From Patescibacteria group bacterium (GTDB taxonomy: Bacteria > Patescibacteriota > Patescibacteriia > Patescibacteriales > UBA12465), in NCBI GenBank assembly GCA_028687275.1, contig JAQUAK010000002.1, positions 6,102-70,101 on the forward strand: a stretch of DNA of 64,000 bases, in the 5' to 3' direction. The translations under genes were made by a program, and so were the position numbers. The notes under the pieces were generated by a model. The model had not been told where the DNA came from, did not search any database, and was given only the letters and a program-made list of their open reading frames with translations. Positions 16,702 through 61,268 of this stretch are shown here, one piece after another (within the stretch, counting starts at the first letter, position 1; each line of letters begins with the position of its first letter).

Positions 16702-16732
16702 GTATAATTTTCAAAATAAATAAAATTAAATT

Positions 16733-16942
16733 TTATTTCTTTTTCTTTGCAACCTTCTTAACAGCTTTCTTAACAACTTTTTTAGGAGCTGCCTTCTTAA
16801 CTGCTTTTTTCACAGCTTTCTTAACAACTTTTTTAGGAGCTGCCTTCTTAACTGCTTTTTTCACAGCTTTCTTAACAACTTTTTTAGGAGCTGCCTTCTT
16901 AACTGCTTTTTTAACTTTTTTTGTAGTAGCCATATTATTCAC
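16733..16942 (-). CDS. Lysine/alanine-rich histone H1-like (Hc1/HctB-like) DNA-binding protein
   Basis: 69 aa, made almost entirely of three copies of KKAVKKAAPKKVVKKAV. A strong SD (aggaggtg) precedes the ATG. Confidence 0.7.
   Translation of the reverse strand: MNNMATTKKVKKAVKKAAPKKVVKKAVKKAVKKAAPKKVVKKAVKKAVKKAAPKKVVKKAVKKVAKKKK
16760..16912. repeat. 51-bp tandem repeat x3 inside the histone-like gene
   Basis: aggagctgccttcttaactgc... recurs at 51-nt spacing (for example at 16784 and 16835). This equals the 17-aa protein repeat. Confidence 0.85.
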
Positions 16943-17137
16943 CTCCTTTCTGGGAAATTTCCCAATTTATTTTTTTAAAAAAATTTAAAAAACTTTTTTA
17001 AAAATATTTTTCTTAATTGTTAATATTATACCTCGCCCCAAAATTTATAGCAATAGTTTTTGCAAAATTTTCTAAAAAATAAAAAAGAGCGGTAACTCTT
17101 TTTTATAAAAAATATTTTTTGTTCTCACAATTTTTTC

Positions 17138-42588: not shown

Positions 42589-42676
42589 GGAGAGGTGGCT
42601 GAGCTGGTTGAAGGCACCGCTCTCGAAAAGCGGCAAGGGCGCAAGCCCTTCGGGAGTTCGAATCTCCCCCTCTCCG
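42589..42676 (+). tRNA. tRNA-Ser (CGA)
   Basis: Acceptor ggagagg/cctctcc, anticodon stem ccgct/agcgg, loop ctCGAaa, long variable arm and T arm gggag-ttcgaat-ctccc. Confidence 0.88.
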
Positions 42677-42748
42677 CAAGTAATATAAAAATCGTCTTTT
42701 GGACGATTTTTTGTTAAAATAAAGATATTGATTAGTAAATATAATTAT

Positions 42749-43675
42749 ATGAAACCAATATTAATTACATGTTATGTTAATCCTGATATAGACGGCTATG
42801 CTGGTGTTATTGCCTATGCCGAATTCCTTAAAAAGAAGGGGAAAAGCGTAGTGGCAGGAATAATGGGTGAGCCACACGATGAAGCGAAATATGTTCTGAA
42901 TAGATTTAGCTTAGAGCGCATGGATGTGATTCAAGATGATGAGCTCTTTGATGAAGTAGTCCTTGTTGATGCTAGCGATGTGAATGGTTTACAGGGAAAG
43001 ATTGTCCCAGAAAAAGTTATTGAAATAATTGATCACAGAAAGATTAATGAAGCAAATAGATTTGTTAATGCTAAAACTCAGATTGAATTGGTTGGCGCAG
43101 CAGCCACTTTGGTGGCAGAAAAGTTTAAGGAAGAGAATATTGAGATTTCACAAAGGTCAGCAATACTTTTATATAGTGCGATTATTTCTAACACTCTTAA
43201 CTTCAAGGGTGGAGTAACTACCGATCGTGATAAAGAAATGGCAAAATGGTTACGACAATTCATTGAGGTTTCAGATGAGTATTGGAAAGAGCTATTCACT
43301 GCCAAGTCTGATTTAACAGGGGATAAATTAATTACGGCTATAAAAGGAGATTTGGCGTGGTTTGATTTTGGAAACACAAAAGTCGGCATTGCCCAATTAG
43401 AGATTATTGGCGCCGAGGAATTAATTAAGCATCGAGCAGATGAAATAGTAGCCACTTTGCATAAAATAAAAGAAAAAATGGGGCTGGATTTAATATTCCA
43501 GAATATTCTTGAACTAGAATTAATGAAAAATTATTTTGTTGCAGAGGATAATCAAATAAAGACGCTTTTAGAAGAGATTCTGGAGGTTAAATTTGATGAA
43601 GCTGTTGCCAAAAGAGATCAATTGATAATGAGGAAACAAATTGTGCCCCTACTTAAGGCAAAATTGGAACTATAG
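42749..43675 (+). CDS. DHH/DHHA2-family phosphoesterase (family II pyrophosphatase-like)
   Basis: NPDIDGYAG, VLVDASD and IIDHRK (a DHH variant), plus a DHHA2-like C-terminal half. The ATG at 42749 is preferred. Confidence 0.6.
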   Translation: MKPILITCYVNPDIDGYAGVIAYAEFLKKKGKSVVAGIMGEPHDEAKYVLNRFSLERMDVIQDDELFDEVVLVDASDVNGLQGKIVPEKVIEIIDHRKINEANRFVNAKTQIELVGAAATLVAEKFKEENIEISQRSAILLYSAIISNTLNFKGGVTTDRDKEMAKWLRQFIEVSDEYWKELFTAKSDLTGDKLITAIKGDLAWFDFGNTKVGIAQLEIIGAEELIKHRADEIVATLHKIKEKMGLDLIFQNILELELMKNYFVAEDNQIKTLLEEILEVKFDEAVAKRDQLIMRKQIVPLLKAKLEL

Positions 43676-43695
43676 CGTCATAATGACTTAAAAAA

Positions 43696-43723
43696 GTTCC
43701 AACTACGTCCCACCCTCTCCGCA
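43696..43723 (+). repeat. 28-bp repeat B ending in an exact copy of the tRNA-Ser(UGA) 3' end
   Basis: gttccaactacgtcccaccctctccgca matches 57126-57153 at 27 of 28 positions. Its last 15 nt are identical to 56600-56614. Confidence 0.85.
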
Positions 43724-48347: not shown

Positions 48348-48421
48348 GGATCGGTAGCTCAGTTGGTTAGAGCGCTGCCCTGTCACGGCAGAGGTCGCGG
48401 GTTCGAGTCCCGTCCGTTCCG
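48348..48421 (+). tRNA. tRNA-Asp (GUC), integration target
   Basis: Anticodon stem ctgcc/ggcag, loop ctGTCac and T arm gcggg-ttcgagt-cccgt. The acceptor has one U-U mismatch (ggatcgg/ccgttcc). Confidence 0.85.
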
Positions 48422-49584
48422 CATTCACACAAAACAGAGTCAATTCTCTGTTTTTTGTTATTTTCTGGGAGTAAATGCGTAATTGGAGCAGGAAGCAAAC
48501 CCGCCATCCCTTCTCTTTCTTGAAGCCTTGTGACCTTATTGTGTCCTAAATCTTCATCCAGGACATTTACTGATGTTTGAAGCGTGGCAAAATCAATATG
48601 ACAATATATCATTGTAGTCCGAATATCAGAGTGTCCCAGCAAGCTTTTAACTACTACTGGATTAACACCTCTTTGTATTAAGCGAGAAGCAAAAGTATGT
48701 CTCAAGGGATGCCAACTAATTCTTTTTATTCCAGCTCTATCGCAGATTCTGAATAGCTCATTTCTACAAATATCATTTCTGATATTCAATCCTAACTTGT
48801 ATTGAAACACAAACCCTCTTTCTTTTCTCTCGCTAAGCAGGGCGTAGTATAGACCATTACTTAAAGGAATAACACGATATTTATTGCTCTTAGGTGGACC
48901 CACTTCATCTTTCTTGTAGATGGATCTTTTAACAGTTAGCACTCTTCTTGTGAAATCTATATCTTCCCATTTTAAGCCTCGAAGCTCGCCTAATCTTAAT
49001 CCGGTCTTCAGCGCCGTTAGAATCATTAATTTCCAAAATCCGGTCGCACTCTCTAGTAAAGCCTCACTTTCTTCAGGAGAAAGGAAAATAAATGAGCTAG
49101 GAGGAGTTTTTAACTGCTTTATTTTAGGCACCTTGCTTAATATGTCCCACTCTTTCGCTGTGTTCAGACAAGTTCTTAACACTGTTAAATGATTATTAAT
49201 GGTTTTATTGGATAATCCCTTTTTACTTACAAAATTAACATACTCTCCTATCGATAGAGGGCTAATTTTATCTAGCCTCTTATTTCCAAAGAATGGGAGA
49301 AGATGTTTATTAAAGATATAATATTTCCCTCTAATTTCAGAAACTTTATTATTATTCTTTACATAAATATTAAACCATTTCTCTGCAAATTCTGATAATT
49401 TTGGTATTTCTGCTACTACTTCCTCACTTTTGCCTATATCTTCTCCAGTGGCCAATTTTCGGCGTAATAAAGCCTCGTAGGCCTTCGCCCCTTCTTTAGC
49501 ATTATCTGGACTCACCTTTCTATATCTCTGATTATCGTGAGTGATGTCCACATACCATCTATGTCCTCGACGTTTTATACTCAT
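48367..49584 (-). CDS. Tyrosine recombinase / phage-type integrase
   Basis: Catalytic pattern TGLRLGELRGL, HPLRHTFAS and LGHSDIRTTMIYCH. The 3' end of the ORF reads through the antisense of tRNA-Asp. Confidence 0.9.
   Translation of the reverse strand: MSIKRRGHRWYVDITHDNQRYRKVSPDNAKEGAKAYEALLRRKLATGEDIGKSEEVVAEIPKLSEFAEKWFNIYVKNNNKVSEIRGKYYIFNKHLLPFFGNKRLDKISPLSIGEYVNFVSKKGLSNKTINNHLTVLRTCLNTAKEWDILSKVPKIKQLKTPPSSFIFLSPEESEALLESATGFWKLMILTALKTGLRLGELRGLKWEDIDFTRRVLTVKRSIYKKDEVGPPKSNKYRVIPLSNGLYYALLSERKERGFVFQYKLGLNIRNDICRNELFRICDRAGIKRISWHPLRHTFASRLIQRGVNPVVVKSLLGHSDIRTTMIYCHIDFATLQTSVNVLDEDLGHNKVTRLQEREGMAGLLPAPITHLLPENNKKQRIDSVLCECGTDGTRTRDLCRDRAAL
48400..48422 (+). repeat. attL-type direct repeat (tRNA-Asp 3' end)
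   Basis: Identical to 55266-55288. Confidence 0.9.
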
Positions 49585-49602
49585 ATCTTTTAATTATAAG
49601 AC

Positions 49603-49797
49603 TCAATTAACCCTATCTTTCTGAAGAAATTCTTCAAGATCTCTTTGTAGAAAACGAATGGAACCGCCAACTTTAATGTGTTTTAATTCTCCTTTATGCA
49701 CTAAGCGATAAAGGGTAGCCTGAGAGATACGCAAAGTGTCTCGCATTTCTCTGGGCCTAATTAGTTTCTCTCCATGATAGGAGTTAATGTTTGTCAT
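49603..49797 (-). CDS. Excisionase/MerR-type helix-turn-helix DNA-binding protein
   Basis: 64 aa. LRISQATLYRLVHKGELKHIKVGGSIRF matches the excisionase-family HTH pattern. It lies directly upstream of the integrase. Confidence 0.75.
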   Translation of the reverse strand: MTNINSYHGEKLIRPREMRDTLRISQATLYRLVHKGELKHIKVGGSIRFLQRDLEEFLQKDRVN

Positions 49798-50800
49798 GTT
49801 AGTTGTTAAAGGGCAATACAGGCAGTAACCGATATTAACGGCTACCCGGACTATATTACCTTATCATTATTTAATAATGAATAAAATGGTTACGTTGTAA
49901 TATAGTTTTGCCAAACAAAAAAGGTTGCTATTAAAGTAAAAACAAAAAGCTATATAACGTAACTTCTTATTTTCATCCTAATAACAACCTCTACCTAGGT
50001 AAGTCCATAGAGGAGAACCTAGATCATTAAAATTGCTTCTCATGAAGTAATAGCAATAGGCATACATGTGGTACATGCTGGGGTATTGCTATCATTTCGA
50101 ATGAATATATTGTTAATGTACTTATATTATACCTTGTCCACTCATTGCTAGTCAAATTTAATCTAAAGACACTAGCAACGATGTAAAGCAGTTGCAGTGT
50201 TTCACTGGTCAATCCAGAGGGATAAGAGGGATCATGCGAGGGATCACTTTTTTTGTCTTTTTAGCTTACATTAAATAATAAATGTAATTATCGAGGAAGC
50301 TAGATGTCGCAAAATGCATACGTATATTGTTACCATTTATGCCCCCGGAGGGGGCACAATTGTGCCATTGTGACACAATTATTAATGTGGTTATGTCTAT
50401 TAGTTGGAAACGGGTAGTCAACCGCTCTGCCTCATGCCCTTTCTATTAAAAACCCCTTCTAGAAATAAAGGTAGTGGGAGCTTCAGAAAAGGAACTTTAT
50501 ACCTCTTAGATGTTACCCTCTATATTTAGGGTGAATTTGAAAACATTATCGGCACTGTCATATATTCACAAATACTTTTGTGTATTGATAAGTAATGAAT
50601 AGCTTGGTATTATATAAATACAATTGAATTGGCCTAAACCAGCTGTTTAGCTGGCATGGTCTAAAAACTGTACAAACATGAAGATGGCTTTCCATCTGGT
50701 ATTTGTTTGTGCAGTCAATGCTCGAAAGGGTGTTGGACATCGCAAGATGTCGCCAGTATGGGAAGCTTTTTTTGATTTCCAAACTGAACACTAACAATAT

Positions 50801-51001
50801 ATGAATAATTCAAACAAAAAACATTGGGGCTACGGAAAAATATCATTAATATTTCTACTACTGGGAGCTATTAAAATAAATATTCTCCCTGTTATGGGAG
50901 TAATATGGGATCTATTCTTTGATATTTTAATAACCATGGGATTAATATCAGGTATATTATGGATCATTGAGAAAATAAAGAAAGCAAAAATGAAAAAATG
51001 A
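50801..51001 (+). CDS. Small membrane protein (66 aa, 2 TM)
   Basis: First ORF of the plus-strand island block. Its stop at 50999-51001 lies one nt before the next ATG at 51003, consistent with translational coupling. Confidence 0.5.
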   Translation: MNNSNKKHWGYGKISLIFLLLGAIKINILPVMGVIWDLFFDILITMGLISGILWIIEKIKKAKMKK

Positions 51002-51002
51002 T

Positions 51003-51215
51003 ATGAGAATAACAGACAAAACCAAAGAAGACGAAGGTAAAGGATATCAACTTTTGAAATTAGACGAGTCAAATAGTAATTACTCTCCGGGAGCAAATAC
51101 CAATTGGGAAAACCTGATTAAAAGCAAAATTTTTATAGTTCTTGGAAATATCCTTTTTTGGATATTTTTTATTTGGCATTTTTATAACAGTCTAACTTTC
51201 AATATTTTTGAGTAG
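51003..51215 (+). CDS. Small membrane protein (70 aa, C-terminal TM)
   Basis: Coupled to the preceding ORF. Polar N-terminus followed by FIVLGNILFWIFFIWHF. Confidence 0.5.
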   Translation: MRITDKTKEDEGKGYQLLKLDESNSNYSPGANTNWENLIKSKIFIVLGNILFWIFFIWHFYNSLTFNIFE

Positions 51216-51283
51216 GTAGACACAAAATAATATCATAACATTACAATTACCGTACTTAGATAAATAATGATAACATTCTTGAA

Positions 51284-51295
51284 TATTCGCGAATA
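51284..51295. promoter_or_regulatory. 12-bp perfect palindrome overlapping a -35-like hexamer upstream of the OLD gene
   Basis: tattcgcgaata directly follows ttgaat (51279-51284). tataat-like sequence lies downstream. Confidence 0.4.
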
Positions 51296-51322
51296 AAAGA
51301 GTATTATGTATATATAATATAG

Positions 51323-53134
51323 ATGATTAAATATATGAAATATACAAAATTTATAATAAATAATTTCAAAGGAATAGAAAGTCTCACGTTAGATTTTGAC
51401 AATCAAATAAAATACAAAATCTTTACATTTGTTGGACTAAATGAAAGTGGAAAAACAACCATACTTGAAGCTATAGATTTTTTACAAAAAGATATAAAAG
51501 AAAAAGACCGGCATAAATTAATTCCAAAAAAAGATAAAACTAATTTTAATGACGTCATCTCCGTTAAGGCTACCATTAAACTAGAGGACGACGACGAAAT
51601 AGCTATAAAAAAATACGCCGATAAAGAAAAGTTCATCCTAGAAAAGACCATAAAGGAATTTACAATAGAAAAAAAGTACATTTACAAAGGGTCAAAGTTT
51701 ATTAAAAAGGAATACATTTGGGATATTAGCCTTATTGGCAAAAAGAAAAATAGCGCCAAAACTAGCAAACTATCATATGATGATAAATTAGACCGAAGAA
51801 GTACAATAGAAGATTACATAGAAGATCAATTGTTACCTCCTATAATATACTATCCAAATTTCTCAGTTAATTTTCCAAATAAAATATATTTGCAAGAGCG
51901 AGAAGGAGAATCTAAAGAGCAAGAATTTTATCGTAACATGGTCCAGGATGTTCTAGATTCGTTAAACAACAATCTAACCATAGAAGAACATATAATCAGC
52001 AGAATGAATAGCGAGTCAGATGAAGACAAAGAGGCTCTCGAGTCAGTCTTGATTGAATTGGGGTCAAAAATTACTGACACCACCTTAAAGTCATGGGAAG
52101 AAATATTTAGAAAAACAGAAATAAAAAGGGAGATAACCATAAAAGATGGTATAGAAGGAGATCCTGGAGATGAAAGATATTTTTTAGAAATTAAACTCAA
52201 ACAAGGTTCTCAGAAATATGCAATTGAAGAGTTAAGCCTTGGATTTAGGTGGTTTTTTGCTTTTTTATTATTTACAGAGTTTAGGAAACATAGAATAAAA
52301 GATAAAGGAGAAATTCTATTTCTTTTGGATGAACCGGCGTCTAATTTGCATTCAACGGTACAGGGCAGATTATTAAATATGTTCCGAGATATTATCAGTA
52401 AAAGTAAACTCATTTATACCACGCATAGTCATCATCTTATTAATCCAGAATGGCTGGAAGGAGCTTACATAATAAAAAATAGTGGTTTAGGGGACTACGA
52501 AGATGTTAATTTAGATCCTGAAAATACCAAAGTAGATGCAATCCCATATAAAAGATTTGTGGTCAATTTCCCGGGACAAAAACATTACTTCAAACCAATA
52601 TTAGATAGCCTAGATTACAAGCCTAGCAGTTTAGAGATGGTCCCCGACATTATTATTGTTGAGGGTAAAAACGACTTTTATGCTTTTAAGTATATCTATG
52701 AAGTAATTATGCAAAAAAAGGAGGCTTCTCTTCATTTTTATCCGGGAAACGGGGCTGGAAAGAATGATCAAGTTATTAGATTATATAATTCTTGGGGGCG
52801 CAAACTATTGGTATTTATGGATGGAGATAAAGCAGGAAGAGACGCAAAAGAAAAGTATAACGAGGAGATTGGCGTCATTGTAAAAGACAGGGTGTATACT
52901 TTGTTTGATATTAAAAAAGAATGGAAAGATAAGGCTACTGAAGATTTATTTTCCCCAAAAGAGCAATTAAGGTTAATACAAGCAATAGACCCTAATTGTA
53001 AAAAAGTTACTAAAACAAAAATTAATAATGCAATCCAAAATTTATTATTCCTAAGACAAAAGGTAGATATAAATAAAACCACGATTGCCAGATTCGAAAA
53101 AATATTTGATTTTCTGTCAAAAAAATTAATATAA
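51323..53134 (+). CDS. OLD-family nuclease (ABC-type ATPase plus TOPRIM)
   Basis: MKYTKFIINNFKGI, Walker A GLNESGKTT, signature-like LSLGFRW, Walker B ILFLLDEPASNLH and H-loop TTHSHH. TOPRIM Glu in IIIVEGKNDFYAF and DxD in FMDGDKAGRD. An alternative start is at 51335. Confidence 0.85.
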   Translation: MIKYMKYTKFIINNFKGIESLTLDFDNQIKYKIFTFVGLNESGKTTILEAIDFLQKDIKEKDRHKLIPKKDKTNFNDVISVKATIKLEDDDEIAIKKYADKEKFILEKTIKEFTIEKKYIYKGSKFIKKEYIWDISLIGKKKNSAKTSKLSYDDKLDRRSTIEDYIEDQLLPPIIYYPNFSVNFPNKIYLQEREGESKEQEFYRNMVQDVLDSLNNNLTIEEHIISRMNSESDEDKEALESVLIELGSKITDTTLKSWEEIFRKTEIKREITIKDGIEGDPGDERYFLEIKLKQGSQKYAIEELSLGFRWFFAFLLFTEFRKHRIKDKGEILFLLDEPASNLHSTVQGRLLNMFRDIISKSKLIYTTHSHHLINPEWLEGAYIIKNSGLGDYEDVNLDPENTKVDAIPYKRFVVNFPGQKHYFKPILDSLDYKPSSLEMVPDIIIVEGKNDFYAFKYIYEVIMQKKEASLHFYPGNGAGKNDQVIRLYNSWGRKLLVFMDGDKAGRDAKEKYNEEIGVIVKDRVYTLFDIKKEWKDKATEDLFSPKEQLRLIQAIDPNCKKVTKTKINNAIQNLLFLRQKVDINKTTIARFEKIFDFLSKKLI

Positions 53135-53274
53135 TATAGATTATTTGTTCTCGATAATAGAGAAAAGGTTAATGGAATAACTACAAATTATCAAGAAAGC
53201 GTTATTAGCTAAATTTCGGTAGCAGTTTTTGCTGTTGCTGTGTGGTTTTAATTAAGCTTTAAGATATTTAATTT

Positions 53275-54108
53275 ATGATTGTTATTGATGAAATTTTTTA
53301 CTTTACGACAGAACAAGCCTCTCCTTTTATTAGTAATGTGGATTGGGGCTCGCTGTTAAGCGCTTTTGTCGGCGCATTTTTATCTATTCTGTTCTGGACC
53401 TATATAGAATTCCTGAGGGGCAGGAAGATAAAAAAAGATAATATAGCTTATATCGAAAAATATTTAATTGTAAATAGTGAAAAACTTATACAGGCAAAAC
53501 AAACAATTGAAAAATTTATCGAAGACAGATTAAAAAAGACTCTAGCTGACATAGAAAAAGATGGAATAGAAGAAATTTATTCCATCCATAGATCATTTTT
53601 TCCTTTATTTGAGGCCGGATTCATTGACGCTGGCATCATGAAGATTCGAACTGGTTCAACTTATATAGACAATCAACTCCTTGTGGTCTATAACAATGTT
53701 AATGATTTTTCATCTGCTATTATTGATTTACGAGAACAATTAACTTCCACGTTTGAATTAAACGAAAAAATGGCTATGCAAAAAGTAAACTCGCCAAGAG
53801 CACAAGGGGCTATAATGAGAGATAATTTGAAAGCATTTATAAAGTTTGCAGAAGATGATTTTTTAGAAAAAAATATAAAAATACATCTAAAGAATCTCAC
53901 ACAAACAAGATTGGCCCTTATCAAATATAATAAAATTGGAGGATTTCGTTGGCAAGTTAAATTTGCTCCTCGCTGGAAATTCTTTTTTTTCAGCAATAAA
54001 AAATACAAAGAATATTGCGATTCAAAATTTAAGGTGATTGATCAATATTTTGAAAAAGAAACAGAAGAAGAAATACAAAAAATTCTCAAAAACATGGAAG
54101 CGTCCTAA
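53275..54108 (+). CDS. Hypothetical protein, N-terminal TM helix plus helical domain
   Basis: 277-aa ORF downstream of the OLD gene, with the TM helix LLSAFVGAFLSILFWTYIEF. No family recognised. Confidence 0.55.
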   Translation: MIVIDEIFYFTTEQASPFISNVDWGSLLSAFVGAFLSILFWTYIEFLRGRKIKKDNIAYIEKYLIVNSEKLIQAKQTIEKFIEDRLKKTLADIEKDGIEEIYSIHRSFFPLFEAGFIDAGIMKIRTGSTYIDNQLLVVYNNVNDFSSAIIDLREQLTSTFELNEKMAMQKVNSPRAQGAIMRDNLKAFIKFAEDDFLEKNIKIHLKNLTQTRLALIKYNKIGGFRWQVKFAPRWKFFFFSNKKYKEYCDSKFKVIDQYFEKETEEEIQKILKNMEAS

Positions 54109-54211
54109 ATAATAATTACCACCCCGCACTGCAACAAGTATAATTTAACCACGCCATATTTATAAATTTAATATAACTTGGTTGACTTGAACTTTAATTA
54201 ATATTCAATAT

Positions 54212-55072
54212 ATGACACAAGCAAAAAACATCCAGAATAAAAGAACGAAGTTCATGAATAATTTTACTTCTGATACTTTATTAATTGCAATAATAACAGG
54301 AGTGGGATATCTTTCTGCTTTTGCCTACAAATTTGCTTATTTAAGTCATTTTGATGTGCCAGTCTTTTTTGTTGAAATTAATTTAAGTACTATTTTAGCA
54401 ATCACTTCTGTTGAGTTTTTTGTTATGCTATATTTAGCATTATTTATTAATGATGCAAGATCTTGGGAAATAAAGAACAATTTGCTTAATCTTATCAAAA
54501 ATTATGGTCATTTAATATTTTCCTTTATAGTAACATCCGTATTGGCTTATCTCTATGTCTACTCAAGTGCAGATATAATATTATTCCCGCCAATGTTACT
54601 TATATTGATTTGCTTATTTATTTTATTCATCATACGACAAAAGGAATTAACCAAGGGTACTAGAAAACATAAACCTAATATACTGCTTTCTGAATCAAGA
54701 AAAATTCTTGGACCATTATTATTTCAGTGTATTTTAATTTCAATACTTGCCGTAATGGCCTGTTATGTGGCTGGAGGTTTTAATGCAAGAAACTCTACCA
54801 AATATTTAGTTTCTAATACCAATCCATCAATATTTCTAATATCAAGTTATCAAGATAGCTTCATTGTCGCGACCTATATTAAAGATAAGAAAACTTTTGA
54901 TAATATTACGTTAATAAACAAAGATCAAATTTCTGATAAAAATATGACATTCTCTGATATGGAGATTGGGCCATTAAACAGTAAAGACAATTTACGATGG
55001 AAAGAATATAGAAAATCAATATATTCCTGGTTTTCACAATATTTTCATAAAACTAAAGCAAATGCTTTATAA
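54212..55072 (+). CDS. Hypothetical polytopic membrane protein (about 5 TM) with C-terminal soluble domain
   Basis: 286-aa ORF, the last gene of the island. No family recognised. Confidence 0.55.
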   Translation: MTQAKNIQNKRTKFMNNFTSDTLLIAIITGVGYLSAFAYKFAYLSHFDVPVFFVEINLSTILAITSVEFFVMLYLALFINDARSWEIKNNLLNLIKNYGHLIFSFIVTSVLAYLYVYSSADIILFPPMLLILICLFILFIIRQKELTKGTRKHKPNILLSESRKILGPLLFQCILISILAVMACYVAGGFNARNSTKYLVSNTNPSIFLISSYQDSFIVATYIKDKKTFDNITLINKDQISDKNMTFSDMEIGPLNSKDNLRWKEYRKSIYSWFSQYFHKTKANAL

Positions 55073-55265
55073 AATAAATCCTACCTACCCCTCCCTGTGT
55101 TGCCCCAGTCTTAATTTGTGACCGTATTGTGTCCGAGAAGTGATAGAATTTAAGATATTAAGTTTTCTTTTAACAACACTTGAGAAATAATATTCCCCTT
55201 GTATTACCGATGTAATTAGATTATTCCATTATATCTATTGAAGTATAGCGATTTAGCTCCTTTTA

Positions 55266-55288
55266 GGTTCGAGTCCCGTCCGTTCCGC
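55266..55288 (+). repeat. attR-type direct repeat (copy of tRNA-Asp 3' end)
   Basis: Identical to 48400-48422. No tRNA body lies upstream of it. Confidence 0.9.
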
Positions 55289-55334
55289 TATAACAAAAAT
55301 CGCCTTTTAGGCGGTTTTTTGTTATGCTAATATT

Positions 55335-56525: not shown

Positions 56526-56612
56526 GGAGAGGTGCCAGAGTGGTCGAATGGAACAGTCTTGAAAACTGTCGTCGGTGCAAGCCGACCGTGGGTTCGAATC
56601 CCACCCTCTCCG
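56526..56612 (+). tRNA. tRNA-Ser (UGA)
   Basis: Acceptor ggagagg/cctctcc, anticodon stem acagt/actgt, loop ctTGAaa, long variable arm and T arm gtggg-ttcgaat-cccac. Confidence 0.88.
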
Positions 56613-56686
56613 CATATGAAAAATAGTCCTAAATTAGGGCTATTTTTTGATAGGGAGTTTATTGCTTTGGAACGACATGGTATAAT
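56600..56686 (+). repeat. Boundary module C (tRNA-Ser 3' end, terminator hairpin, TGnTATAAT promoter)
   Basis: cccaccctctccgca, then aaaaatagtcctaaattagggctatttttt, then gagtttattgctttggaacgacatggtataat. About 80 percent identical by eye to module F. Confidence 0.8.
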
Positions 56687-56716
56687 ATGTTTGTAAAATA
56701 ATACGATAGAAGTGCT

Positions 56717-57109
56717 ATGAATATTATAAGTGACAATACTCCAGATTTAATATCGCCTATTTTTTCGCATATTATAGAAATAGGAGTTAACCCTTATATT
56801 GTTTTTGTTTTGTTAGTGCTTGTCATTTTTTCATTATATTTTTTATTATTTAGCTTGTTGGCTTATAGGGGTAATTTCAATTTATTGAAAAAAGATTTTA
56901 AAAAAATGCCACTTAAAAACAAGCGAGACTGGTTTATTTTTTTATTTGTTGGTGTTCTTATGGCTTTTATTATGTTTTATCAAATGCTTGATTCATTCTA
57001 CAGTCCAGCTGATATAGTCAGATACCGCGTTTCCTCTATTGATAAGGCCGTTGCATCTTTTGGGGATAAAATGGTCCTGTTCTTAGAAAAAATTGGCATA
57101 CTTAGATAA
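56717..57109 (+). CDS. Hypothetical membrane protein (130 aa, 2-3 TM), cassette 1
   Basis: ORF lying between module C and repeat D. No family recognised. Confidence 0.5.
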   Translation: MNIISDNTPDLISPIFSHIIEIGVNPYIVFVLLVLVIFSLYFLLFSLLAYRGNFNLLKKDFKKMPLKNKRDWFIFLFVGVLMAFIMFYQMLDSFYSPADIVRYRVSSIDKAVASFGDKMVLFLEKIGILR

Positions 57110-57125
57110 TTTGTTGGCAATAACC

Positions 57126-57153
57126 GTTCCAACTACGTCCCACCCTCCCCGCA
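57126..57153 (+). repeat. 28-bp repeat D (near-copy of repeat B; degenerate tRNA-Ser 3' end)
   Basis: gttccaactacgtcccaccctccccgca, followed by the hairpin aataagcta-ttac-tagcttatt. Confidence 0.85.
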
Positions 57154-57194
57154 TTAACAAAAATAAGCTATTACTAGCTTATTATTGTCCCCAG

Positions 57195-58258
57195 TTCAAT
57201 AAGTAAGTGCAACACTTTGATATAATTAAAGATATTATCAAAGTGTATGAATTATCAACATCTAAGTATTGAGGAGCGGGAAAAGCTTCAGTTAATGCTC
57301 TGGCAAAAACAATCAGTTAGAGTTATAGCCAAAGAGCTAAATCGGAGCCCCTCTTCTATATCAAGGGAAATAAATAAGAACCGTCGCTCTGACGGCAAAA
57401 GATTGTATATTCCTAGGGCTGCCCATGAAAGAGCCATCACTAAACGCTCAAGTAGAGGAGAAAGAAGACTGGTTCAGAACGAGAGACTGCGAGATTATGT
57501 AATTAAACATCTCAAATTAGGCTGGTCACCAGAGCAAATAGCCGCTAAAGCAGAAGAAATGACGAGTACTAAAATATCCCATGAAGCTATATATCAATAC
57601 ATCTATGCTCAAGTACACAGAAATGGCTATGGCTATATTAGGCCAGGCTGTGAAGACCTCAGGCCATATTTAGCTAGACGTAAGAAAAGAAGAGTACAAA
57701 AAGGATTAAGGGCTAGTTATCGCACAGATAAAGGCTCATTGCCATCAATTGATAGTCGTCCTCAGGAAGTTGAAGAGAGAAAAAGCATTGGTCATTGGGA
57801 AGACGATCTAATAGTATCTAAAGAATCTAAACAGGCGCTAAAGACGGTTAATGAACGAGTATCCGGAATAGTATTTATTGAAAAAGTGAACAACAAAACT
57901 ATTTCCGAATCTAACCGCAGTGTGGCTAAGCGATTGCAAGAAATACCGCTGGAATACAGGAAGACTTTAACCAGGGACAGAGGAAGTGAGAATCTCGGAC
58001 ACGTGGAGCTAGAACAAGAACTGGGAATTCTCTGCTATTTTGCTCATGCCTATCATTCCTGGGAAAGAGGCTCCAACGAGAACTTAAATGGCCTTATTCG
58101 TCGTTTTTTACCTAAAGGAACCGACTTCAGAACAGTATCAGCAGAGCAAATTAAACGAATTGAGTACTTAATTAACTCTAGACCAAGGAAAAGACTTGGC
58201 TGGAAGACCCCTTATGAGGTATTCTATGAAAAGACAGGTGTTGCACTTCTAACTTGAA
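57195..58258 (+). mobile_element. IS30-family insertion sequence
   Basis: Terminal inverted repeats ttcaataagtaagtgcaacac (57195-57215) and gtgttgcacttctaacttgaa (58238-58258) enclose a single IS30-type transposase. Confidence 0.85.
57247..58257 (+). CDS. IS30-family transposase
   Basis: N-terminal HTH (LSIEEREKLQLMLWQKQSVRVIAKELNRSPSSISREINKN) and a DDE region (HWEDDLI ... TRDRGSEN ... NENLNGLIRRFLPKG). Confidence 0.9.
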   Translation: MNYQHLSIEEREKLQLMLWQKQSVRVIAKELNRSPSSISREINKNRRSDGKRLYIPRAAHERAITKRSSRGERRLVQNERLRDYVIKHLKLGWSPEQIAAKAEEMTSTKISHEAIYQYIYAQVHRNGYGYIRPGCEDLRPYLARRKKRRVQKGLRASYRTDKGSLPSIDSRPQEVEERKSIGHWEDDLIVSKESKQALKTVNERVSGIVFIEKVNNKTISESNRSVAKRLQEIPLEYRKTLTRDRGSENLGHVELEQELGILCYFAHAYHSWERGSNENLNGLIRRFLPKGTDFRTVSAEQIKRIEYLINSRPRKRLGWKTPYEVFYEKTGVALLT

Positions 58259-58412
58259 TGTACCTGTTAATATATTGACAATTTTAATTATTTATGCTAT
58301 ATTAACAAGTTAATAGTTCATTAAAAAATATGTTAAATTTGATTAATCACCAAGTTTGCCTATATTTAGGCGAATTTAGTAATTAATCAAATTCAACACT
58401 AAAAAAAGAAAA

Positions 58413-58715
58413 ATGGAAACAGTAATTTTTATTATTCTAGCTATTATAGCTCTTTATGCGATTGTAATGATGATCATGTGTCTGATAGATGGATTTAGGT
58501 CTATCATTTATCAGTATAGGGCTAAAAATATCGAGATCAAGTGTTCGACACCAGTTTCTGCAAATAGCACATTAAGTGCAAAAAACACTGAAGCAACAGT
58601 CATTTATCGTAGCATCTATGTAGATGGCAAAAGATTATCTTCTCAATTTGAAGATGAAACTAACTCAATAAATAGAGCTACACAAAGTATAAATACGGTG
58701 GCGGCTATTATGTAA
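58413..58715 (+). CDS. Hypothetical small membrane-anchored protein (100 aa), cassette 2
   Basis: N-terminal TM helix VIFIILAIIALYAIVMMIMCL. Its own terminator lies at 58723-58753. Confidence 0.45.
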   Translation: METVIFIILAIIALYAIVMMIMCLIDGFRSIIYQYRAKNIEIKCSTPVSANSTLSAKNTEATVIYRSIYVDGKRLSSQFEDETNSINRATQSINTVAAIM

Positions 58716-58782
58716 CAATTGAGGCGGTGAACGATTTCGTGCACCGCCTTTTTTATTTATCCAAAAATATTCCAGCCTCTTC

Positions 58783-58868
58783 CTACCCTCTCTACAGATT
58801 AAAAATAAATCTAATATCGAAGTTATTTTTTGTTATTAGTTTTATCGTTTTAGAATAGCGTGATATAA
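58783..58868 (+). repeat. Boundary module E (degenerate)
   Basis: taccctctctacagattaaaaataaatc...ttatttttt...tgatataat. Same order of parts as modules C, F and G. Confidence 0.6.
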
Positions 58869-58875
58869 TTATAAT

Positions 58876-59265
58876 ATGAAAAAGAATTTACCAAAACCCT
58901 TTAAAAATGCCATTATCTATGAAGATAGCAAGCTATATGCTTGTTTGGCTAATAATCCAATTATTTCCGGCCATGTTGTGGTTGTTTGGAAAAAGGATGT
59001 TAAAGATATAAATTTACTATCAAAAAAAGATTATGAGTATTTAATGAATAGGGTCAATGATATCAGAAAGTCAATGATAAAAACACTGAAAGTTAAAAAG
59101 ATTTATCTTTTATATATGGATGAAATTAATCATGTTCATTGGCACCTTGTGCCACGCTATAAAAAAATGGGGCTTGATGTTTTATTAGGTAAACCAGGTA
59201 AAATTAATGATTTCACTCTTGATGATAAAATTAGAAATAATTTAATTATTAGGAAAAACAATTAG
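58876..59265 (+). CDS. HIT-family protein, cassette 3
   Basis: Histidine triad INHVHWHLVPRY. Confidence 0.8.
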   Translation: MKKNLPKPFKNAIIYEDSKLYACLANNPIISGHVVVVWKKDVKDINLLSKKDYEYLMNRVNDIRKSMIKTLKVKKIYLLYMDEINHVHWHLVPRYKKMGLDVLLGKPGKINDFTLDDKIRNNLIIRKNN

Positions 59266-59286
59266 TTTAAAATCTTTTCAAAATGA

Positions 59287-59372
59287 CCCACACTCTCTAC
59301 AGCTTAAAAATAGCCTAAATAAGGGCTATTTTTTAACAGAGAGTTTATCGCCCTGGAACGCTATGTTATAAT
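59287..59372 (+). repeat. Boundary module F
   Basis: cccacactctctacagcttaaaaatagcctaaataagggctattttttaacagagagtttatcgccctggaacgctatgttataat. Confidence 0.8.
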
Positions 59373-59378
59373 CAAATT

Positions 59379-60056
59379 ATGAGATTTACTAATTTTGATA
59401 ATATTATTTCTGGAATATCAGAGAAAAAAGATGGACCAATGAAAAGCTCTTTGGACAATCGTCTTTTGTTTTTTAAAAATGAAGGCCTAGATAAAAAAAT
59501 AATAGTATCGGCCGGATTAATTCATGGCAATCGAGTAGCTATTATTGAGAGTATTAATAAAGAAACCGTTATTAACCGCTGTGATGCTTTAATAACAAAC
59601 AATAGTAAATATTTATTAGCAATCACAGTGGCTGATTGTTTACCGGTTTATTTTTTTGATAATAATAAAAAAGTGGTCGCCTTAGCTCATGCCGGCTGGC
59701 GTGGCATTATATCAAAAATAATATCAGAGGTAGTTTCTTCATTCATTAATGACTATAGATCCAATTTAAGTGATATAAATGTTTTTATTGGCCCGCATAT
59801 TCAAGATTGTCATTTTGAGGTAAAAAAGGATGTTGCTGATTACTTTAAACAAGATTATTTAGCTATAAATAATGGAAAAAAGTACATTAATCTTTCTTTG
59901 GCGGCAAAAAATCAATTAATTGAGTCTGGTGTTTTAAGCAGTAATATTAGTATAAGTGATGAGTGTACTTATTGTCTAAGGGATAAATATTTTTCTTTTA
60001 GAAGAGACAATCCTGAGAATTTAGAGACAATGATAGCCTATCTTAGTCTTAAGTAG
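59379..60056 (+). CDS. YfiH/PgeF-family (Cu-oxidase_4, laccase-domain) protein, cassette 4
   Basis: ITVADCLPVYFFD, ALAHAGWRG and IGPHIQDCHFEV. Confidence 0.8.
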   Translation: MRFTNFDNIISGISEKKDGPMKSSLDNRLLFFKNEGLDKKIIVSAGLIHGNRVAIIESINKETVINRCDALITNNSKYLLAITVADCLPVYFFDNNKKVVALAHAGWRGIISKIISEVVSSFINDYRSNLSDINVFIGPHIQDCHFEVKKDVADYFKQDYLAINNGKKYINLSLAAKNQLIESGVLSSNISISDECTYCLRDKYFSFRRDNPENLETMIAYLSLK

Positions 60057-60080
60057 ATTATATCTTGTATATTACCAAGC

Positions 60081-60166
60081 CGCACCCTCTCCGTAGATTA
60101 AAAATAGCCCTAATTTTAGGGCTATTTTTATAAAAAGTTTATAGCTGTAAAATGATATGATATAAT
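60081..60166 (+). repeat. Boundary module G
   Basis: cgcaccctctccgtagattaaaaatagccctaattttagggctattttt...tgatataat. Confidence 0.75.
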
Positions 60167-60201
60167 TAAACTATCAATATTATAATAATTAAAATAATTT
60201 T

Positions 60202-60858
60202 ATGAAATTATTGTTAACCTCAAATGGCCTTTCTAATCAATCAATTGCCACAGCCTTATTAGAATTAGTCGGAAAACCAGCCTCAGAAACTAATATCGTT
60301 TTTATTCCTACGGCCATGAATGTTGCTAGGGGTAGCAAGGAATGGTTTATAAACGATCTTTATAATATTAAAAAGCAAGGATTCAAATTTATTGACATTG
60401 TAGATATATCAGCCCTTCCTAAAAAAATTTGGTTACCAAAAATAGAGAATGGGGATGTTTTATTTTTCTCAGGAGGAAACACCTATCATTTAATGTATTG
60501 GCTAAAAGAATCAGGTCTATCTGATTTATTACCAGAATTATTAAAAACGAGAGTTTATGCTGGTATCAGCGCTGGAAGCATGGCTACAAATCCAGATATA
60601 ACTCTTAGCGGTAGTGATAAAAAAGAATATTACAAGGAACAATTTAGTTATAGTAGTGAGGAGGCTTTGCATTTTGTAGATTTTTATATTCGCCCTCATT
60701 TTAATTCTCCGAAACACTTATCTTCAAGGAAAGAAAACCTAGAAAAGATTGCCAAAGAAATGAAAAAAACCGTTTATGGGCTTGATGATGAATCGGCCCT
60801 TAAAATCTCTGATGATAAAGTGGAGATTATTACTGAAGGGGAATATATAAAACTATAG
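60202..60858 (+). CDS. Peptidase S51 family (dipeptidase E-like), cassette 5
   Basis: Nucleophile motif YAGISAGSM. The length and layout match peptidase E-like proteins. Confidence 0.65.
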   Translation: MKLLLTSNGLSNQSIATALLELVGKPASETNIVFIPTAMNVARGSKEWFINDLYNIKKQGFKFIDIVDISALPKKIWLPKIENGDVLFFSGGNTYHLMYWLKESGLSDLLPELLKTRVYAGISAGSMATNPDITLSGSDKKEYYKEQFSYSSEEALHFVDFYIRPHFNSPKHLSSRKENLEKIAKEMKKTVYGLDDESALKISDDKVEIITEGEYIKL

Positions 60859-61268
60859 CTGATATAAAAACCAGTTTTCCATAAATTAAAAAGTCCTGAA
60901 GGGCAAATATATAATTTGCATATAAATAAATTCTAATAATGAAATTAGTTAAATATATAACTAGGAACTACAGCTTAAGGGATCATTTACTGATTGTTCA
61001 ATCTTTATATAGAAAAAATACTTCAATCCCAGAATTATATTATACTGGCGCTGTAGACGTCTTTATTAAATGACTTTAAGAAAGCATGGTAATAATATTC
61101 ATATTTTAAGATAATCTTTGGTGCAAGGATTAAAAACCTACCCTAAATAAAAAATCAGCTCTAGCTGGTTTTTTATTATACTTTCGGCACACTTTAAGTC
61201 TGTCAATAAAATAATTGACAATCTATTAAAATTTAATATATACTTATTAACATAAATTACTAATACAT

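What the first reader, a model, noticed from the sequence alone, without database searches (positions are those of the whole stretch)
56526..60170. Chain of single-gene cassettes separated by ~85-90 bp modules derived from the tRNA-Ser(UGA) 3' end
Starting at tRNA-Ser(UGA), the sequence repeats one unit at 56600, 58783, 59287 and 60081. A shorter relative sits at 57126.

Each unit has three parts:
- an acceptor-arm-like cccaccctctccgca or a degenerate version;
- the hairpin aaaaatagccctaaattagggctattttt;
- a conserved promoter stretch ending in TGnTATAAT.

Modules C and F are about 80 percent identical over ~88 nt by eye. Between consecutive modules lies one gene. In order these are a 130-aa TM protein, IS30 plus a 100-aa TM protein, a HIT protein, a YfiH/PgeF protein and an S51 peptidase.

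This looks like serial site-specific insertions at the same tRNA, each pushing older att copies downstream. Alternatively it could be an unrecognised cassette-capture mechanism. No dedicated recombinase sits in the array. The nearest one is the tRNA-Asp island integrase 7 kb upstream.

A further very degenerate copy may lie near 61128-61175 (cctaccctaaataaaaaatcagctctagctggtttttt).
Basis: seen in the sequence. Interest (0 to 1): 0.65.

Follow-up and report, generated by a model that had tools for sequence, protein, structure and literature searches.

The report
Serine-recombinase gene-cassette array at tRNA-Ser
Downstream of a tRNA-Ser gene sits a stack of one-gene mobile cassettes, each with its own terminator and promoter and bounded by attachment-site copies; related candidate-phyla bacteria carry the same sites next to a large serine recombinase that inserts at tRNA-Ser genes, a target barely documented for this enzyme class.

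Summary
A tRNA-Ser-like 14-mer, a hairpin and a TGnTATAAT promoter recur at 56600, 57139, 58782, 59287 and 60081, far above chance. A sixth copy sits one gene downstream of the window's other tRNA-Ser (43709).

The site is not a local oddity. ACCGTTCCAAnTnCGT-CCCAC-CCTCTCCGC occurs in at least 120 metagenome contigs and several Patescibacteria genomes. There it forms direct arrays downstream of all four tRNA-Ser isoacceptors. Spacing has a median of 791 bp and most intervals hold one ORF.

Larger units (3-9 kb) bounded by tRNA-Ser and the same site encode a large serine recombinase (LSR), usually with a rolling-circle Rep. The LSR gene overlaps the tRNA antisense. In the unintegrated form it reads through the site.

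Near-identical contigs break homology exactly at the site. Homologues of the window's PgeF and S51 genes are cassettes with intact sites elsewhere, with different neighbours.

Best reading: serial site-specific insertion at tRNA-Ser of non-autonomous cassettes that carry LSR attP-like ends. The array resembles SCC composite islands. The window encodes no LSR, and its three distal junctions are decayed. The tRNA-Asp island integrase is not implicated.

Trans-mobilisation by the LSR is inferred, not shown. I rate it a new variant of a known kind, of high interest.

The parts
56526..56613 (+). tRNA-Ser(UGA), the attachment gene. Its last 14 nt (56600-56613, CCCACCCTCTCCGC) are the first copy of the core.
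   Evidence: ARAGORN; Rfam tRNA 59 bits; core search. A contig from a second sample ends exactly at 56613.
56614..57138 (+). Cassette 1. Head: hairpin 56618-56648 and TGGTATAAT promoter ending about 56688. ORF 56717-57109 (130 aa, no family). Intact right arm AACCGTTCCAACTACGT at 57122-57138.
   Evidence: head profile E=5.5e-18; hairpin -14.5 kcal/mol. The arm matches the consensus of 180 distinct sites.
57139..57152 (+). Junction B core CCCACCCTCCCCGC, 1 mismatch.
   Evidence: It is 89% identical over 38 nt, arm included, to the copy at 43696 (family D6).
57153..58781 (+). Cassette 2. Hairpin 57157-57188. IS30 insertion about 57197-58258 (transposase 57247-58257). Promoter-like site 58275-58303. 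ORF 58413-58715 (100 aa). Decayed arm 58769-58781.
   Evidence: NCBIfam IS30 254 bits; hairpin -11.3 kcal/mol; promoter scan 11/12. IS ends were read from the sequence (AAGTGCAACAC / GTGTTGCACTT).
58782..59286 (+). Cassette 3. Decayed core CCTACCCTCTCTAC (58782-58795). Head 58796-58872, hairpin lost. HIT-family ORF 58876-59265.
   Evidence: (E=3.8e-12).
59287..60080 (+). Cassette 4. Decayed core CCCACACTCTCTAC (59287-59300). Head 59301-59377. PgeF/YfiH ORF 59379-60056.
   Evidence: (E=2.5e-18). The homologous cassette in L109 has intact sites on both sides.
60081..60886 (+). Cassette 5. Core CGCACCCTCTCCGT (60081-60094). Head 60095-60171. Peptidase S51 ORF 60202-60858. Decayed arm about 60862-60886.
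   Evidence: E=5.5e-15; -18 kcal/mol. It is 78.7% identical over 784 nt to a cassette in L087 that has other neighbours.
61128..61175 (+). Possible last remnant: CCTACCCT plus a hairpin. It could be the displaced original tRNA end or a degraded head.
   Evidence: Sequence only. It did not reach any search threshold.
42589..42677 (+). tRNA-Ser(CGA), the second attachment gene in the window.
42678..43722 (+). Single cassette at tRNA-Ser(CGA). Hairpin. DHH/DHHA2 ORF 42728-43675. Arm GTTCCAACTACGT at 43696-43708. Perfect core 43709-43722.
   Evidence: The syntenic relatives L033 and L023 carry other genes at this position.

Best explanation
The array is a stack of small integrative cassettes, inserted one after another by site-specific recombination into the 3' end of tRNA-Ser.

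A cassette has three parts:
- a head of about 78 nt, made of a short A/T-rich stretch (AGATTGTAAATA-like), a terminator-type hairpin and an extended -10 promoter;
- usually one gene;
- a right arm, ACCGTTCCAAnTnCGT-CCCAC.

The crossover falls in CCTCTCCGC. This is the acceptor-stem 3' strand plus discriminator, and all tRNA-Ser genes share it. Each insertion therefore regenerates the tRNA and pushes the previous cassette downstream. Every internal junction (arm, core, next head) looks like a complete attP.

The enzyme is most likely a large serine recombinase. It is encoded on autonomous 3-9 kb relatives that use the same ends, in most cases together with a rolling-circle Rep and a conserved ~310-aa protein. 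The cassettes would be non-autonomous passengers moved in trans, as ccr-less psi-SCC elements are in staphylococci.

In this window, cassette 1 and the DHH cassette keep intact sites. The HIT, PgeF and S51 cassettes have decayed junctions and are probably fixed. No recombinase gene lies in the 64 kb.

Shown:
- the repeat architecture;
- its link to tRNA-Ser;
- the link between LSR elements and the same ends;
- breakpoints at the site;
- different cassette content in relatives.

Inferred:
- that the LSR catalyses cassette movement in trans;
- the exact crossover dinucleotide;
- that new cassettes enter at the tRNA-proximal site.
For: 1. Widespread, tRNA-Ser-linked arrays.
- tRNAs in those loci are dominated by Ser: tga 14, cga 9, gct 9, gga 5.
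- Of 51 arrays with enough upstream DNA, 30 (plus 2) have a tRNA-Ser upstream on the same strand.
- 119 intervals end in an arm-type site, with a median of 791 bp. 87 of 112 hold one ORF. 114 ORFs are co-oriented and 11 are opposite.

2. The site is conserved without coding.
- Positions -19 to +13 are 80-100% conserved across 180 distinct sites. This includes positions outside the search pattern.

3. The window's head is a shared family.
- The head profile hits about 75 places in other loci, nearly all 0-8 nt after a core.
- 57 distinct heads align.
- The hairpin is 96% paired, with 15 double-sided changes against 3.4 in shuffles.

4. The recombinase.
- In L153, L127 and L138, the interval from tRNA-Ser to the site encodes Resolvase + Recombinase (plus a Zn ribbon in L153) together with a REP_ORF2-G2P Rep.
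- LSR homologues occur in about 15 of the loci.
- The LSR gene overlaps tRNA-Ser antisense in six loci.
- It reads through an intact arm-core site in L131 and in L069/L100, ending ..RRGWD.LGT...

5. An unbiased test by protein similarity.
- The LSR query returned at least 3340 homologues. Sources name them Patescibacteria, Falkowbacteria or Magasanikbacteria.
- 71 of the best 120 end in ..R.G[RW]DSNP.., the antisense of a T-arm. Many tails read through tRNA-Ser(UGA).
- Both contexts fetched overlap a tRNA-Ser and have a site at the far end, a variant arm in L168: L168 at gga, L169 at gct.

6. Breakpoints at the site.
- L066 and L108 are 100% identical over 883 nt. One has tRNA-Ser(gct)...CCCCG upstream and the other has arm...CCCAC. 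The switch sits at CCTCTCCGC.
- L058/L065 (99.6%) and L121/L157 (99.8%) behave alike.

7. The window's genes are cassettes elsewhere.
- PgeF in L109 lies between two intact sites.
- S51 occurs in L125 and in L087 with other neighbours.
- L033 and L023 are syntenic at tRNA-Ser(CGA) but carry different genes.
Against: - No LSR gene lies in the 64-kb window. The rest of the genome could not be searched.
- No circular cassette and no clean filled-versus-empty pair with both flanks was found.
- Large serine recombinases normally recombine attP with attB, not attP with attL. Stacking needs the tRNA-proximal hybrid site to stay a substrate, which is untested.
- In L121/L157 an arm is followed by the host-type CCCTCCCCCTCCGC. 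This fits the crossover placement badly.
- The commonest cassette arm variant (AACTACGT) was not seen at the end of any LSR element in this small sample.
- The metagenome loci were ascertained with the site pattern itself. Only the LSR homologue test is free of that bias.
Confidence: 0.72

Rival explanations
1. The short units are not independently mobile cassettes. They are in-place wreckage of full-length LSR elements that lost their recombinase, Rep and other genes by deletion.
For: LSR gene fragments lie beside some tRNA-Ser genes: L092, L118, L130, L152, and a broken gene in L106. Units of about 200 nt without an ORF recur, ending in a T-arm-like GAGGCGGAAAT plus core.
Against: In full elements the core is followed by the 3' end of the LSR gene. 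In at least 57 distinct cassettes it is followed within 0-8 nt by the same terminator-promoter head in front of unrelated ORFs. Deletion would have to end at the same base each time. No head copy was found inside the LSR-bearing intervals inspected (L153, L127 and L138). Identical cassettes also occur in different junction contexts.
Confidence: 0.12
2. A tyrosine recombinase moves the cassettes. Candidates are the tRNA-Asp island integrase 7 kb upstream or a Xer-type enzyme. This would be an integron-like or classical tRNA-island mechanism.
For: Tyrosine integrases are the known tRNA-targeting enzymes (PMC4383910). One lies at 48367-49584. Heteroduplex in a 6-8 bp overlap could explain the inconsistent linkage of core positions 4-7 in L121/L157.
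Against: That integrase overlaps tRNA-Asp and has its own 23-nt tRNA-Asp repeat at 48400 and 55266 (family D10). Its island is absent from a 99.6%-identical strain in which the tRNA-Ser flank is unchanged. phmmer found no homologue beside any of about 120 arrays; the only two weak hits lie several kb away. The arm sequence is the LSR's own coding 3' end.
Confidence: 0.06
3. The module is a regulatory intergenic repeat, a terminator-promoter block, spread by duplication or gene conversion. Its resemblance to the tRNA end is incidental and no site-specific recombination is involved.
For: The head looks like a terminator plus an extended -10 promoter. Its hairpin is under structural selection.
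Against: In the window every copy lies behind one of the two tRNA-Ser genes. Elsewhere copies follow the core within 0-8 nt and arrays are tied to tRNA-Ser. The conserved 17-21 nt arm lies upstream of the core, at gene 3' ends, and has no regulatory rationale. Homology between near-identical contigs breaks exactly at the core.
Confidence: 0.05
4. The arm plus core acts at the RNA level, as a tRNA-like 3' tag on each mRNA for processing or stabilisation.
For: Most ORFs are co-oriented with the site (114 of 125). The core copies the acceptor 3' strand.
Against: There is no 5' acceptor partner. Rfam gives no hit beyond the tRNA itself. Eleven cassettes carry the ORF on the opposite strand (for example L040 1840-2271). 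The same sequence is coding DNA of the LSR.
Confidence: 0.03

Closest known systems
Staphylococcal cassette chromosome (SCC/SCCmec) composite islands with ccr-less psi-SCC elements
   Same: Large serine recombinases insert elements at the 3' end of one conserved gene. Successive elements stack in tandem, separated by direct repeats of the attachment sequence. Units without a recombinase coexist with autonomous ones (10.1101/336396; PMC6243372). The LSR here gives its best, though far sub-threshold, NCBIfam matches to CcrA, CcrB, CcrC and XisF.
   Different: The target is tRNA-Ser, all four isoacceptors, not rlmH. Units are about 0.8 kb single genes with a standard terminator-promoter head, not 10-60 kb islands. 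The helper carries a rolling-circle Rep. The hosts are Patescibacteria. The LSR gene spans attP, so its C-terminus changes on integration.
tRNA-targeting genomic islands in tandem arrays, including tycheposons of Prochlorococcus
   Same: Integration into a tRNA 3' end regenerates the tRNA. Displaced tRNA-like fragments in direct orientation mark successive insertions. Cargo is small and variable (PMC4383910; 10.1101/2020.12.28.424599).
   Different: Those systems rely almost wholly on tyrosine integrases. Serine integrases were stated not to be known to target tRNA genes (PMC4383910). Only 14 of 297 candidates did so, called unproven, in 10.1101/2020.01.24.918748. Here the repeated unit is an element-borne arm plus a 9-nt shared core, and most units lack any integrase.
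Integron cassette arrays
   Same: Arrays of mostly single-gene, co-oriented cassettes separated by recombination sites, with the recombinase outside the cassettes and newest cassettes presumably proximal.
   Different: There is no IntI, attI or attC. The junction is a conserved sequence of about 45-50 nt, not a structured imperfect palindrome. Each cassette brings its own promoter and terminator, whereas integron cassettes are typically promoterless and rely on a platform promoter (established knowledge). The platform is a tRNA gene.
Non-autonomous integrative elements mobilised in trans (CIMEs, IMEs)
   Same: att-flanked units without a recombinase that depend on a related autonomous element (PMC5704250).
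   Different: Those are defined around conjugative elements and tyrosine or DDE enzymes. Here no conjugation genes are linked to the cassettes, and the units are far smaller and highly standardised.

Membership tests
Integron | IntI-type tyrosine recombinase adjacent to the array | tested here: not met
   No recombinase lies in or next to the array. The only tyrosine recombinase in the window scores 71.6 bits against the integron-integrase cutoff of 265 and sits on the tRNA-Asp island.
Integron | attC sites (structured imperfect palindromes) between promoterless cassettes (feature as known from the integron literature, not re-derived here) | tested here: not met
   Junctions are a conserved linear sequence, arm plus core. 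Each cassette has its own TGnTATAAT promoter and hairpin. No attC model was available to run.
SCC-type elements | Ccr-family large serine recombinase | tested here: not met
   Resolvase, Recombinase and Zn-ribbon domains are present in relatives. The CcrA/B/C models score 65-78 bits against cutoffs of 700-900. None lies in the window.
SCC-type elements | Integration at the 3' end of rlmH (orfX) | tested here: not met
   The attachment gene is tRNA-Ser.
SCC-type elements | Tandem stacking with repeated attachment sequences, including recombinase-less units | tested here: met
   The window array. Arrays of up to 6-7 sites in L040, L056, L118 and L120. Tandem LSR elements in L100.
Large-serine-recombinase integrative element | Resolvase catalytic domain + Recombinase domain + zinc ribbon | tested here: met
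   L153 protein: PF00239 at 6.4e-24, PF07508 at 4.7e-16, and PF13408 weak at 20.5 bits, below its 25.3-bit cut-off. All 120 best homologues carry Resolvase and Recombinase, and nearly all also the zinc ribbon. This holds for relatives, not for the window.
Large-serine-recombinase integrative element | attP of about 50 bp and attB of about 40 bp recombining at a central dinucleotide | tested here: inconclusive
   The conserved footprint runs from -19 to about +26 around the core. The crossover is confined to CCTCTCCGC by L066/L108. The dinucleotide is not resolved, and L121/L157 is discordant.
Classical tRNA genomic island (Islander type) | Intact tRNA plus displaced 3' fragment in direct orientation | tested here: met
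Classical tRNA genomic island (Islander type) | Tyrosine integrase gene inside each island | tested here: not met
   Autonomous relatives carry a serine recombinase instead.
Dispersed intergenic repeat (REP/MITE-like) | Many copies at unrelated loci, terminal inverted repeats or target duplications | tested here: not met
   All window copies lie behind the two tRNA-Ser genes. No terminal inverted repeats were seen. Arrays are tied to tRNA-Ser.

The most novel reading that the evidence does not exclude
Patescibacteria (candidate phyla radiation) have an integron-like gene-capture platform driven by a serine recombinase. All four tRNA-Ser genes serve as docking sites. An abundant LSR family, carried on small rolling-circle helper elements, stacks standardised one-gene cassettes there, each self-expressing through its own terminator and promoter. 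The system would be a main route of accessory-gene flux in these reduced genomes and the first recombinase family of this class specialised on tRNA genes.
Probability: 0.5. Interest if true: 0.85.

Novelty: new variant of a known kind. Interest (0 to 1): 0.74.

Why it matters
Candidate-phyla bacteria have tiny genomes, and how they gain and lose accessory genes is poorly understood. A standard one-gene cassette format docking at tRNA-Ser would be a concrete and testable mechanism.

It would also overturn a working rule. Serine integrases have been described as not known to target tRNA genes (PMC4383910; 10.1101/2020.01.24.918748). Here a family with thousands of members does so.

There is a practical side. 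These recombinases come with short, well-defined attP-like sites and a conserved natural attB in tRNA-Ser. That makes them candidates for genome-engineering tools, and possibly a first handle for genetics in uncultivated CPR lineages.

The origin of the cassettes is open, as it is for integron cassettes: how do unrelated ORFs end up between a conserved head and a conserved arm?

Tried and rejected
- The genome-contig scan with the junction pattern gave mostly single chance hits at tRNA-Ser ends in unrelated phyla. Only the Patescibacteria loci were informative. The window's own genome was not found.
- The viral-contig scan with the site pattern gave 0 hits.
- Rfam matched nothing beyond tRNA in the window array or in four arrays elsewhere.
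- phmmer with the tRNA-Asp integrase and the IS30 transposase found no association with arrays.
- The consensus terminator scan missed the module hairpins because their stems are A/T-rich. Folding was used instead.
- Exact-protein look-ups for the 130-aa and DHH proteins found nothing on record. Strain-level presence or absence of those cassettes therefore could not be read.
- I first placed the crossover at the 5' edge of the 14-mer, from L121/L157. I moved it into CCTCTCCGC because of L066/L108, L058/L065 and the general pattern. L121/L157 remains unexplained.
- I considered the head hairpin as a rolling-circle origin for the helper Rep. I dropped this because no head copy occurs inside the LSR-Rep intervals inspected (L153, L127, L138).
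- Literature searches for CPR/Patescibacteria cassette arrays or tRNA-targeting serine recombinases found no description of this system.

Full report
**Observation**

The window holds tRNA-Ser(UGA) at 56526-56613. The 15-mer CCCACCCTCTCCGCA, with up to 3 mismatches, occurs seven times, all on the + strand, where 0.32 is expected. The positions are 42664 (the end of tRNA-Ser(CGA)), 43709, 56600, 57139, 58782, 59287 and 60081.

A 21-nt junction pattern matches four times against 0.02 expected. The heads after the cores share 63-83% identity over 59 nt. Their hairpins fold at -11 to -18 kcal/mol, except the decayed copy C.

Between junctions lie, in order:
- a 130-aa protein;
- an IS30 (254 bits, cutoff 80) plus a 100-aa protein;
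- a HIT protein;
- PgeF/YfiH (above the NCBIfam cutoff);
- an S51 peptidase.

The finding is therefore accurate. One cassette it missed encodes a DHH/DHHA2 protein and sits behind the window's other tRNA-Ser. That cassette ends in a perfect core preceded by GTTCCAACTACGT, the same arm as at 57126 (family D6).

**The site elsewhere**

A first scan of genomes with the junction pattern turned up Patescibacteria loci. In L040, tRNA-Ser(UGA) is followed by six further sites. The intervals between them are mostly small genes, and four of the sites read ACCGTTCCAAC..CGTCCCACCCTCTCCGC.

Figures from those loci:
- 306 cores, of which 30 are ends of tRNA genes and 276 are free.
- The tRNAs present are mostly Ser, of all four isoacceptors.
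- Of 51 arrays with enough upstream DNA, 30 (plus 2) have a tRNA-Ser upstream on the same strand.
- 119 intervals ending in an arm-type site have a median of 791 bp. 87 of 112 hold exactly one ORF. 114 ORFs are co-oriented and 11 are opposite.
- Across 180 distinct sites, conservation runs from -19 to the end of the core, including positions not fixed by the search pattern. It falls off beyond the core.

Free sites keep CCCAC even where the resident tRNA has CCCTC, CCCTG or CCCCG. The site therefore belongs to the inserted DNA and is not a copy of the local tRNA end.

**The head**

A profile built from the window's four heads finds about 75 places in other loci, almost all 0-8 nt after a core. 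57 distinct heads align to this consensus:

AGATTnTAAATAGCCCTAAAnnnGGGCTATTTTTGATAGGGAGTTTATCGCTTTGGAACGGnATGnTATAAT

The hairpin is paired in 96% of cells, with 15 double-sided changes against 3.4 in shuffles. I read the head as a terminator that insulates the unit, followed by an extended -10 promoter. That reading is an inference. Rfam knows no such family.

**The recombinase**

Where the interval from tRNA-Ser to the next site is 5-5.5 kb (L153, L127, L138), it encodes three proteins:
- a protein of about 500 aa with Resolvase and Recombinase domains, plus a Zn ribbon in L153;
- a REP_ORF2-G2P rolling-circle Rep;
- a conserved protein of about 220-315 aa with no family.

Homologues of the recombinase occur in about 15 of the loci and not in the window. 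The gene overlaps tRNA-Ser antisense in six loci and then ends ..RRGRDSNPR. In L131 and L069/L100 it reads through an intact arm-core site and ends ..RRGWD.LGT... The arm is therefore the recombinase's own 3' coding end in the attP form.

A test free of site ascertainment used the L131 protein as query.
- It retrieved at least 3340 homologues, named Patescibacteria, Falkowbacteria or Magasanikbacteria where a source names them.
- 71 of the best 120 end in the antisense translation of a T-arm. Many tails read through tRNA-Ser(UGA).
- Both contexts I fetched overlap a tRNA-Ser, gga in the 896-kb chromosome behind L168 and gct in L169. Each has a site at the far end, 3 kb and 9.2 kb away. The L168 site is a variant (GCGTTCCAATATAAT-ACCAAGCTCTCCGC) that falls outside the arm criterion used above.

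**Crossover and mobility**

L066 and L108 are 100% identical for 883 nt from CCTCTCCGC onward. Upstream, one has tRNA-Ser(gct) ...GGTTCGAAT-CCCCG and the other has ...CCGTTCCAACTACGT-CCCAC. L058/L065 behave the same way. This places the exchange within the 9-nt acceptor strand plus discriminator that all tRNA-Ser genes share, which explains why all four isoacceptors are used.

L121/L157 (99.8% over 1405 nt) also break at the site. There, however, an arm is followed by the host-type CCCTCCCCCTCCGC. I cannot reconcile this with the other pairs.

Cassette content differs between relatives.
- L033 and L023 are syntenic with the window around tRNA-Ser(CGA) but carry other genes behind it.
- The window's S51 cassette, head included, is 78.7% identical to one in L087 that has different neighbours.
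- PgeF in L109 lies between two intact sites.
- A contig from another sample, 99.6% identical to the window, ends at exactly the last base of the tRNA-Ser core.

**Mechanism**

An LSR-bearing element integrates into tRNA-Ser by attP x attB exchange in CCTCTCCGC, and its own core copy restores the tRNA.

Head-type cassettes carry the same arm, the same core and a similar A/T-rich start (AGATTGTmAATA, as in the L131 attP) but no recombinase. I infer that they are moved in trans. Each new insertion at the tRNA leaves an arm-core-head junction and shifts older units outward.

In this window the two tRNA-proximal right ends are intact (57122-57152 and 43696-43722). The junctions at 58782, 59287 and 60081 and the arm after S51 (about 60862-60886) are decayed. 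The HIT, PgeF and S51 genes therefore look fixed. An IS30 has landed inside cassette 2.

Weak points:
- No LSR lies in the window.
- No circles were seen.
- The tRNA-proximal hybrid site must remain a substrate, which is not the textbook behaviour of these enzymes.

**Rivals**

- In-place decay of full elements explains the ORF-less units of about 200 nt with LSR remnants. It does not explain at least 57 cassettes whose core is followed at once by the same head.
- The tRNA-Asp island integrase has its own repeat (family D10) and is absent together with its island from a near-identical strain. It has no homologue beside arrays.
- A purely regulatory repeat or an RNA-level tag does not fit the tRNA-Ser linkage, the breakpoints, or the cassettes with opposite-strand ORFs.

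**Comparison and novelty**

The closest working analogue is the SCC composite island. In both, a large serine recombinase inserts at the 3' end of one conserved gene, units stack in tandem, and some units lack a recombinase (10.1101/336396; PMC6243372).

Membership fails on the Ccr family (65-78 bits against cutoffs of 700-900) and on rlmH as target. Integron membership fails on IntI, attC and promoterless cassettes. Classical tRNA islands and tycheposons share the tRNA logic but use tyrosine integrases.

Two surveys say serine integrases are not known to target tRNA genes, or only as 14 unproven candidates (PMC4383910; 10.1101/2020.01.24.918748). Six literature searches found no description of this system.

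I rate it a new variant of a known kind. The array in this window is a partly fossilised instance of a widespread system that appears to be undescribed.

Noticed in passing
window 48348-55299: A 6.9-kb island in tRNA-Asp. The tyrosine integrase (48367-49584, minus strand) overlaps the tRNA. A 23-nt direct repeat lies at 48400 and 55266. A contig from another sample (L002, 99.6% identical) joins the tRNA-Asp body directly to 55266, so it shows the empty site.
   Followed up: partly
window 51323-53134: The tRNA-Asp island carries a 603-aa ATPase that matches PARIS AriA (3.5e-23) and the OLD/AbiL/GajA-type models in PADLOC, a likely anti-phage defence gene. The small HTH protein at 49603-49797 matches mad1.
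   Followed up: partly
L131 4846-6363; L153 4697-6208; proteins P0002-P0120: The LSR gene spans attP, so its last ~10 residues change on integration: ..RRGWD.LGT.. when unintegrated and ..RRGRDSNP.. when read into the tRNA. Whether this alters activity or directionality is unknown.
   Followed up: partly
proteins P0085, P0095, P0098-P0100, P0104, P0111, P0112, P0116, P0117, P0120: A sister group of the LSRs ends ..MLGDRDSNPD(K/S)QDQNLLSYR. This looks like the antisense of a different tRNA, with acceptor strand ..TCGCCCAG. The family as a whole may be tRNA-targeting with several specificities.
   Followed up: no
L040 275-484; also L048, L075, L118, L121, L157: Recurrent ORF-less units of about 200 nt start GTACAAAATAAA plus a hairpin and end in a T-arm-like GAGG(G)CGGAAAT plus core. 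Some give weak LSR C-terminus hits. They may be relics of elements or a second kind of att arm.
   Followed up: partly
L121 (sites at 2691, 1301, 624) and L157 (742, 2132): An element-type arm is followed by the host-type core CCCTCCCCCTCCGC. The same upstream unit carries two different cores in two contigs. This linkage contradicts the crossover position inferred from the other pairs.
   Followed up: partly
window 58331-58398: A 32-nt inverted repeat (84% complementary, 4-nt gap) lies just upstream of the 100-aa ORF, between its promoter-like site and its start codon.
   Followed up: no
window 16731-16954: A run of 12- and 15-nt periodic repeats (12 copies of a 71-nt register). It probably encodes a Lys/Ala-rich repetitive protein tail on the minus strand.
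   Followed up: no
L016 6159-6686 and L038 767-1282; L016 4888-5736 and L026 772-1002: The same cargo types recur next to sites in different genomes: a protein starting MDKINIYIDGNNLYRSAKELGFEIDYKKF, and a protein starting M.D.NNKKSI.IF. This is consistent with a shared cassette pool.
   Followed up: no
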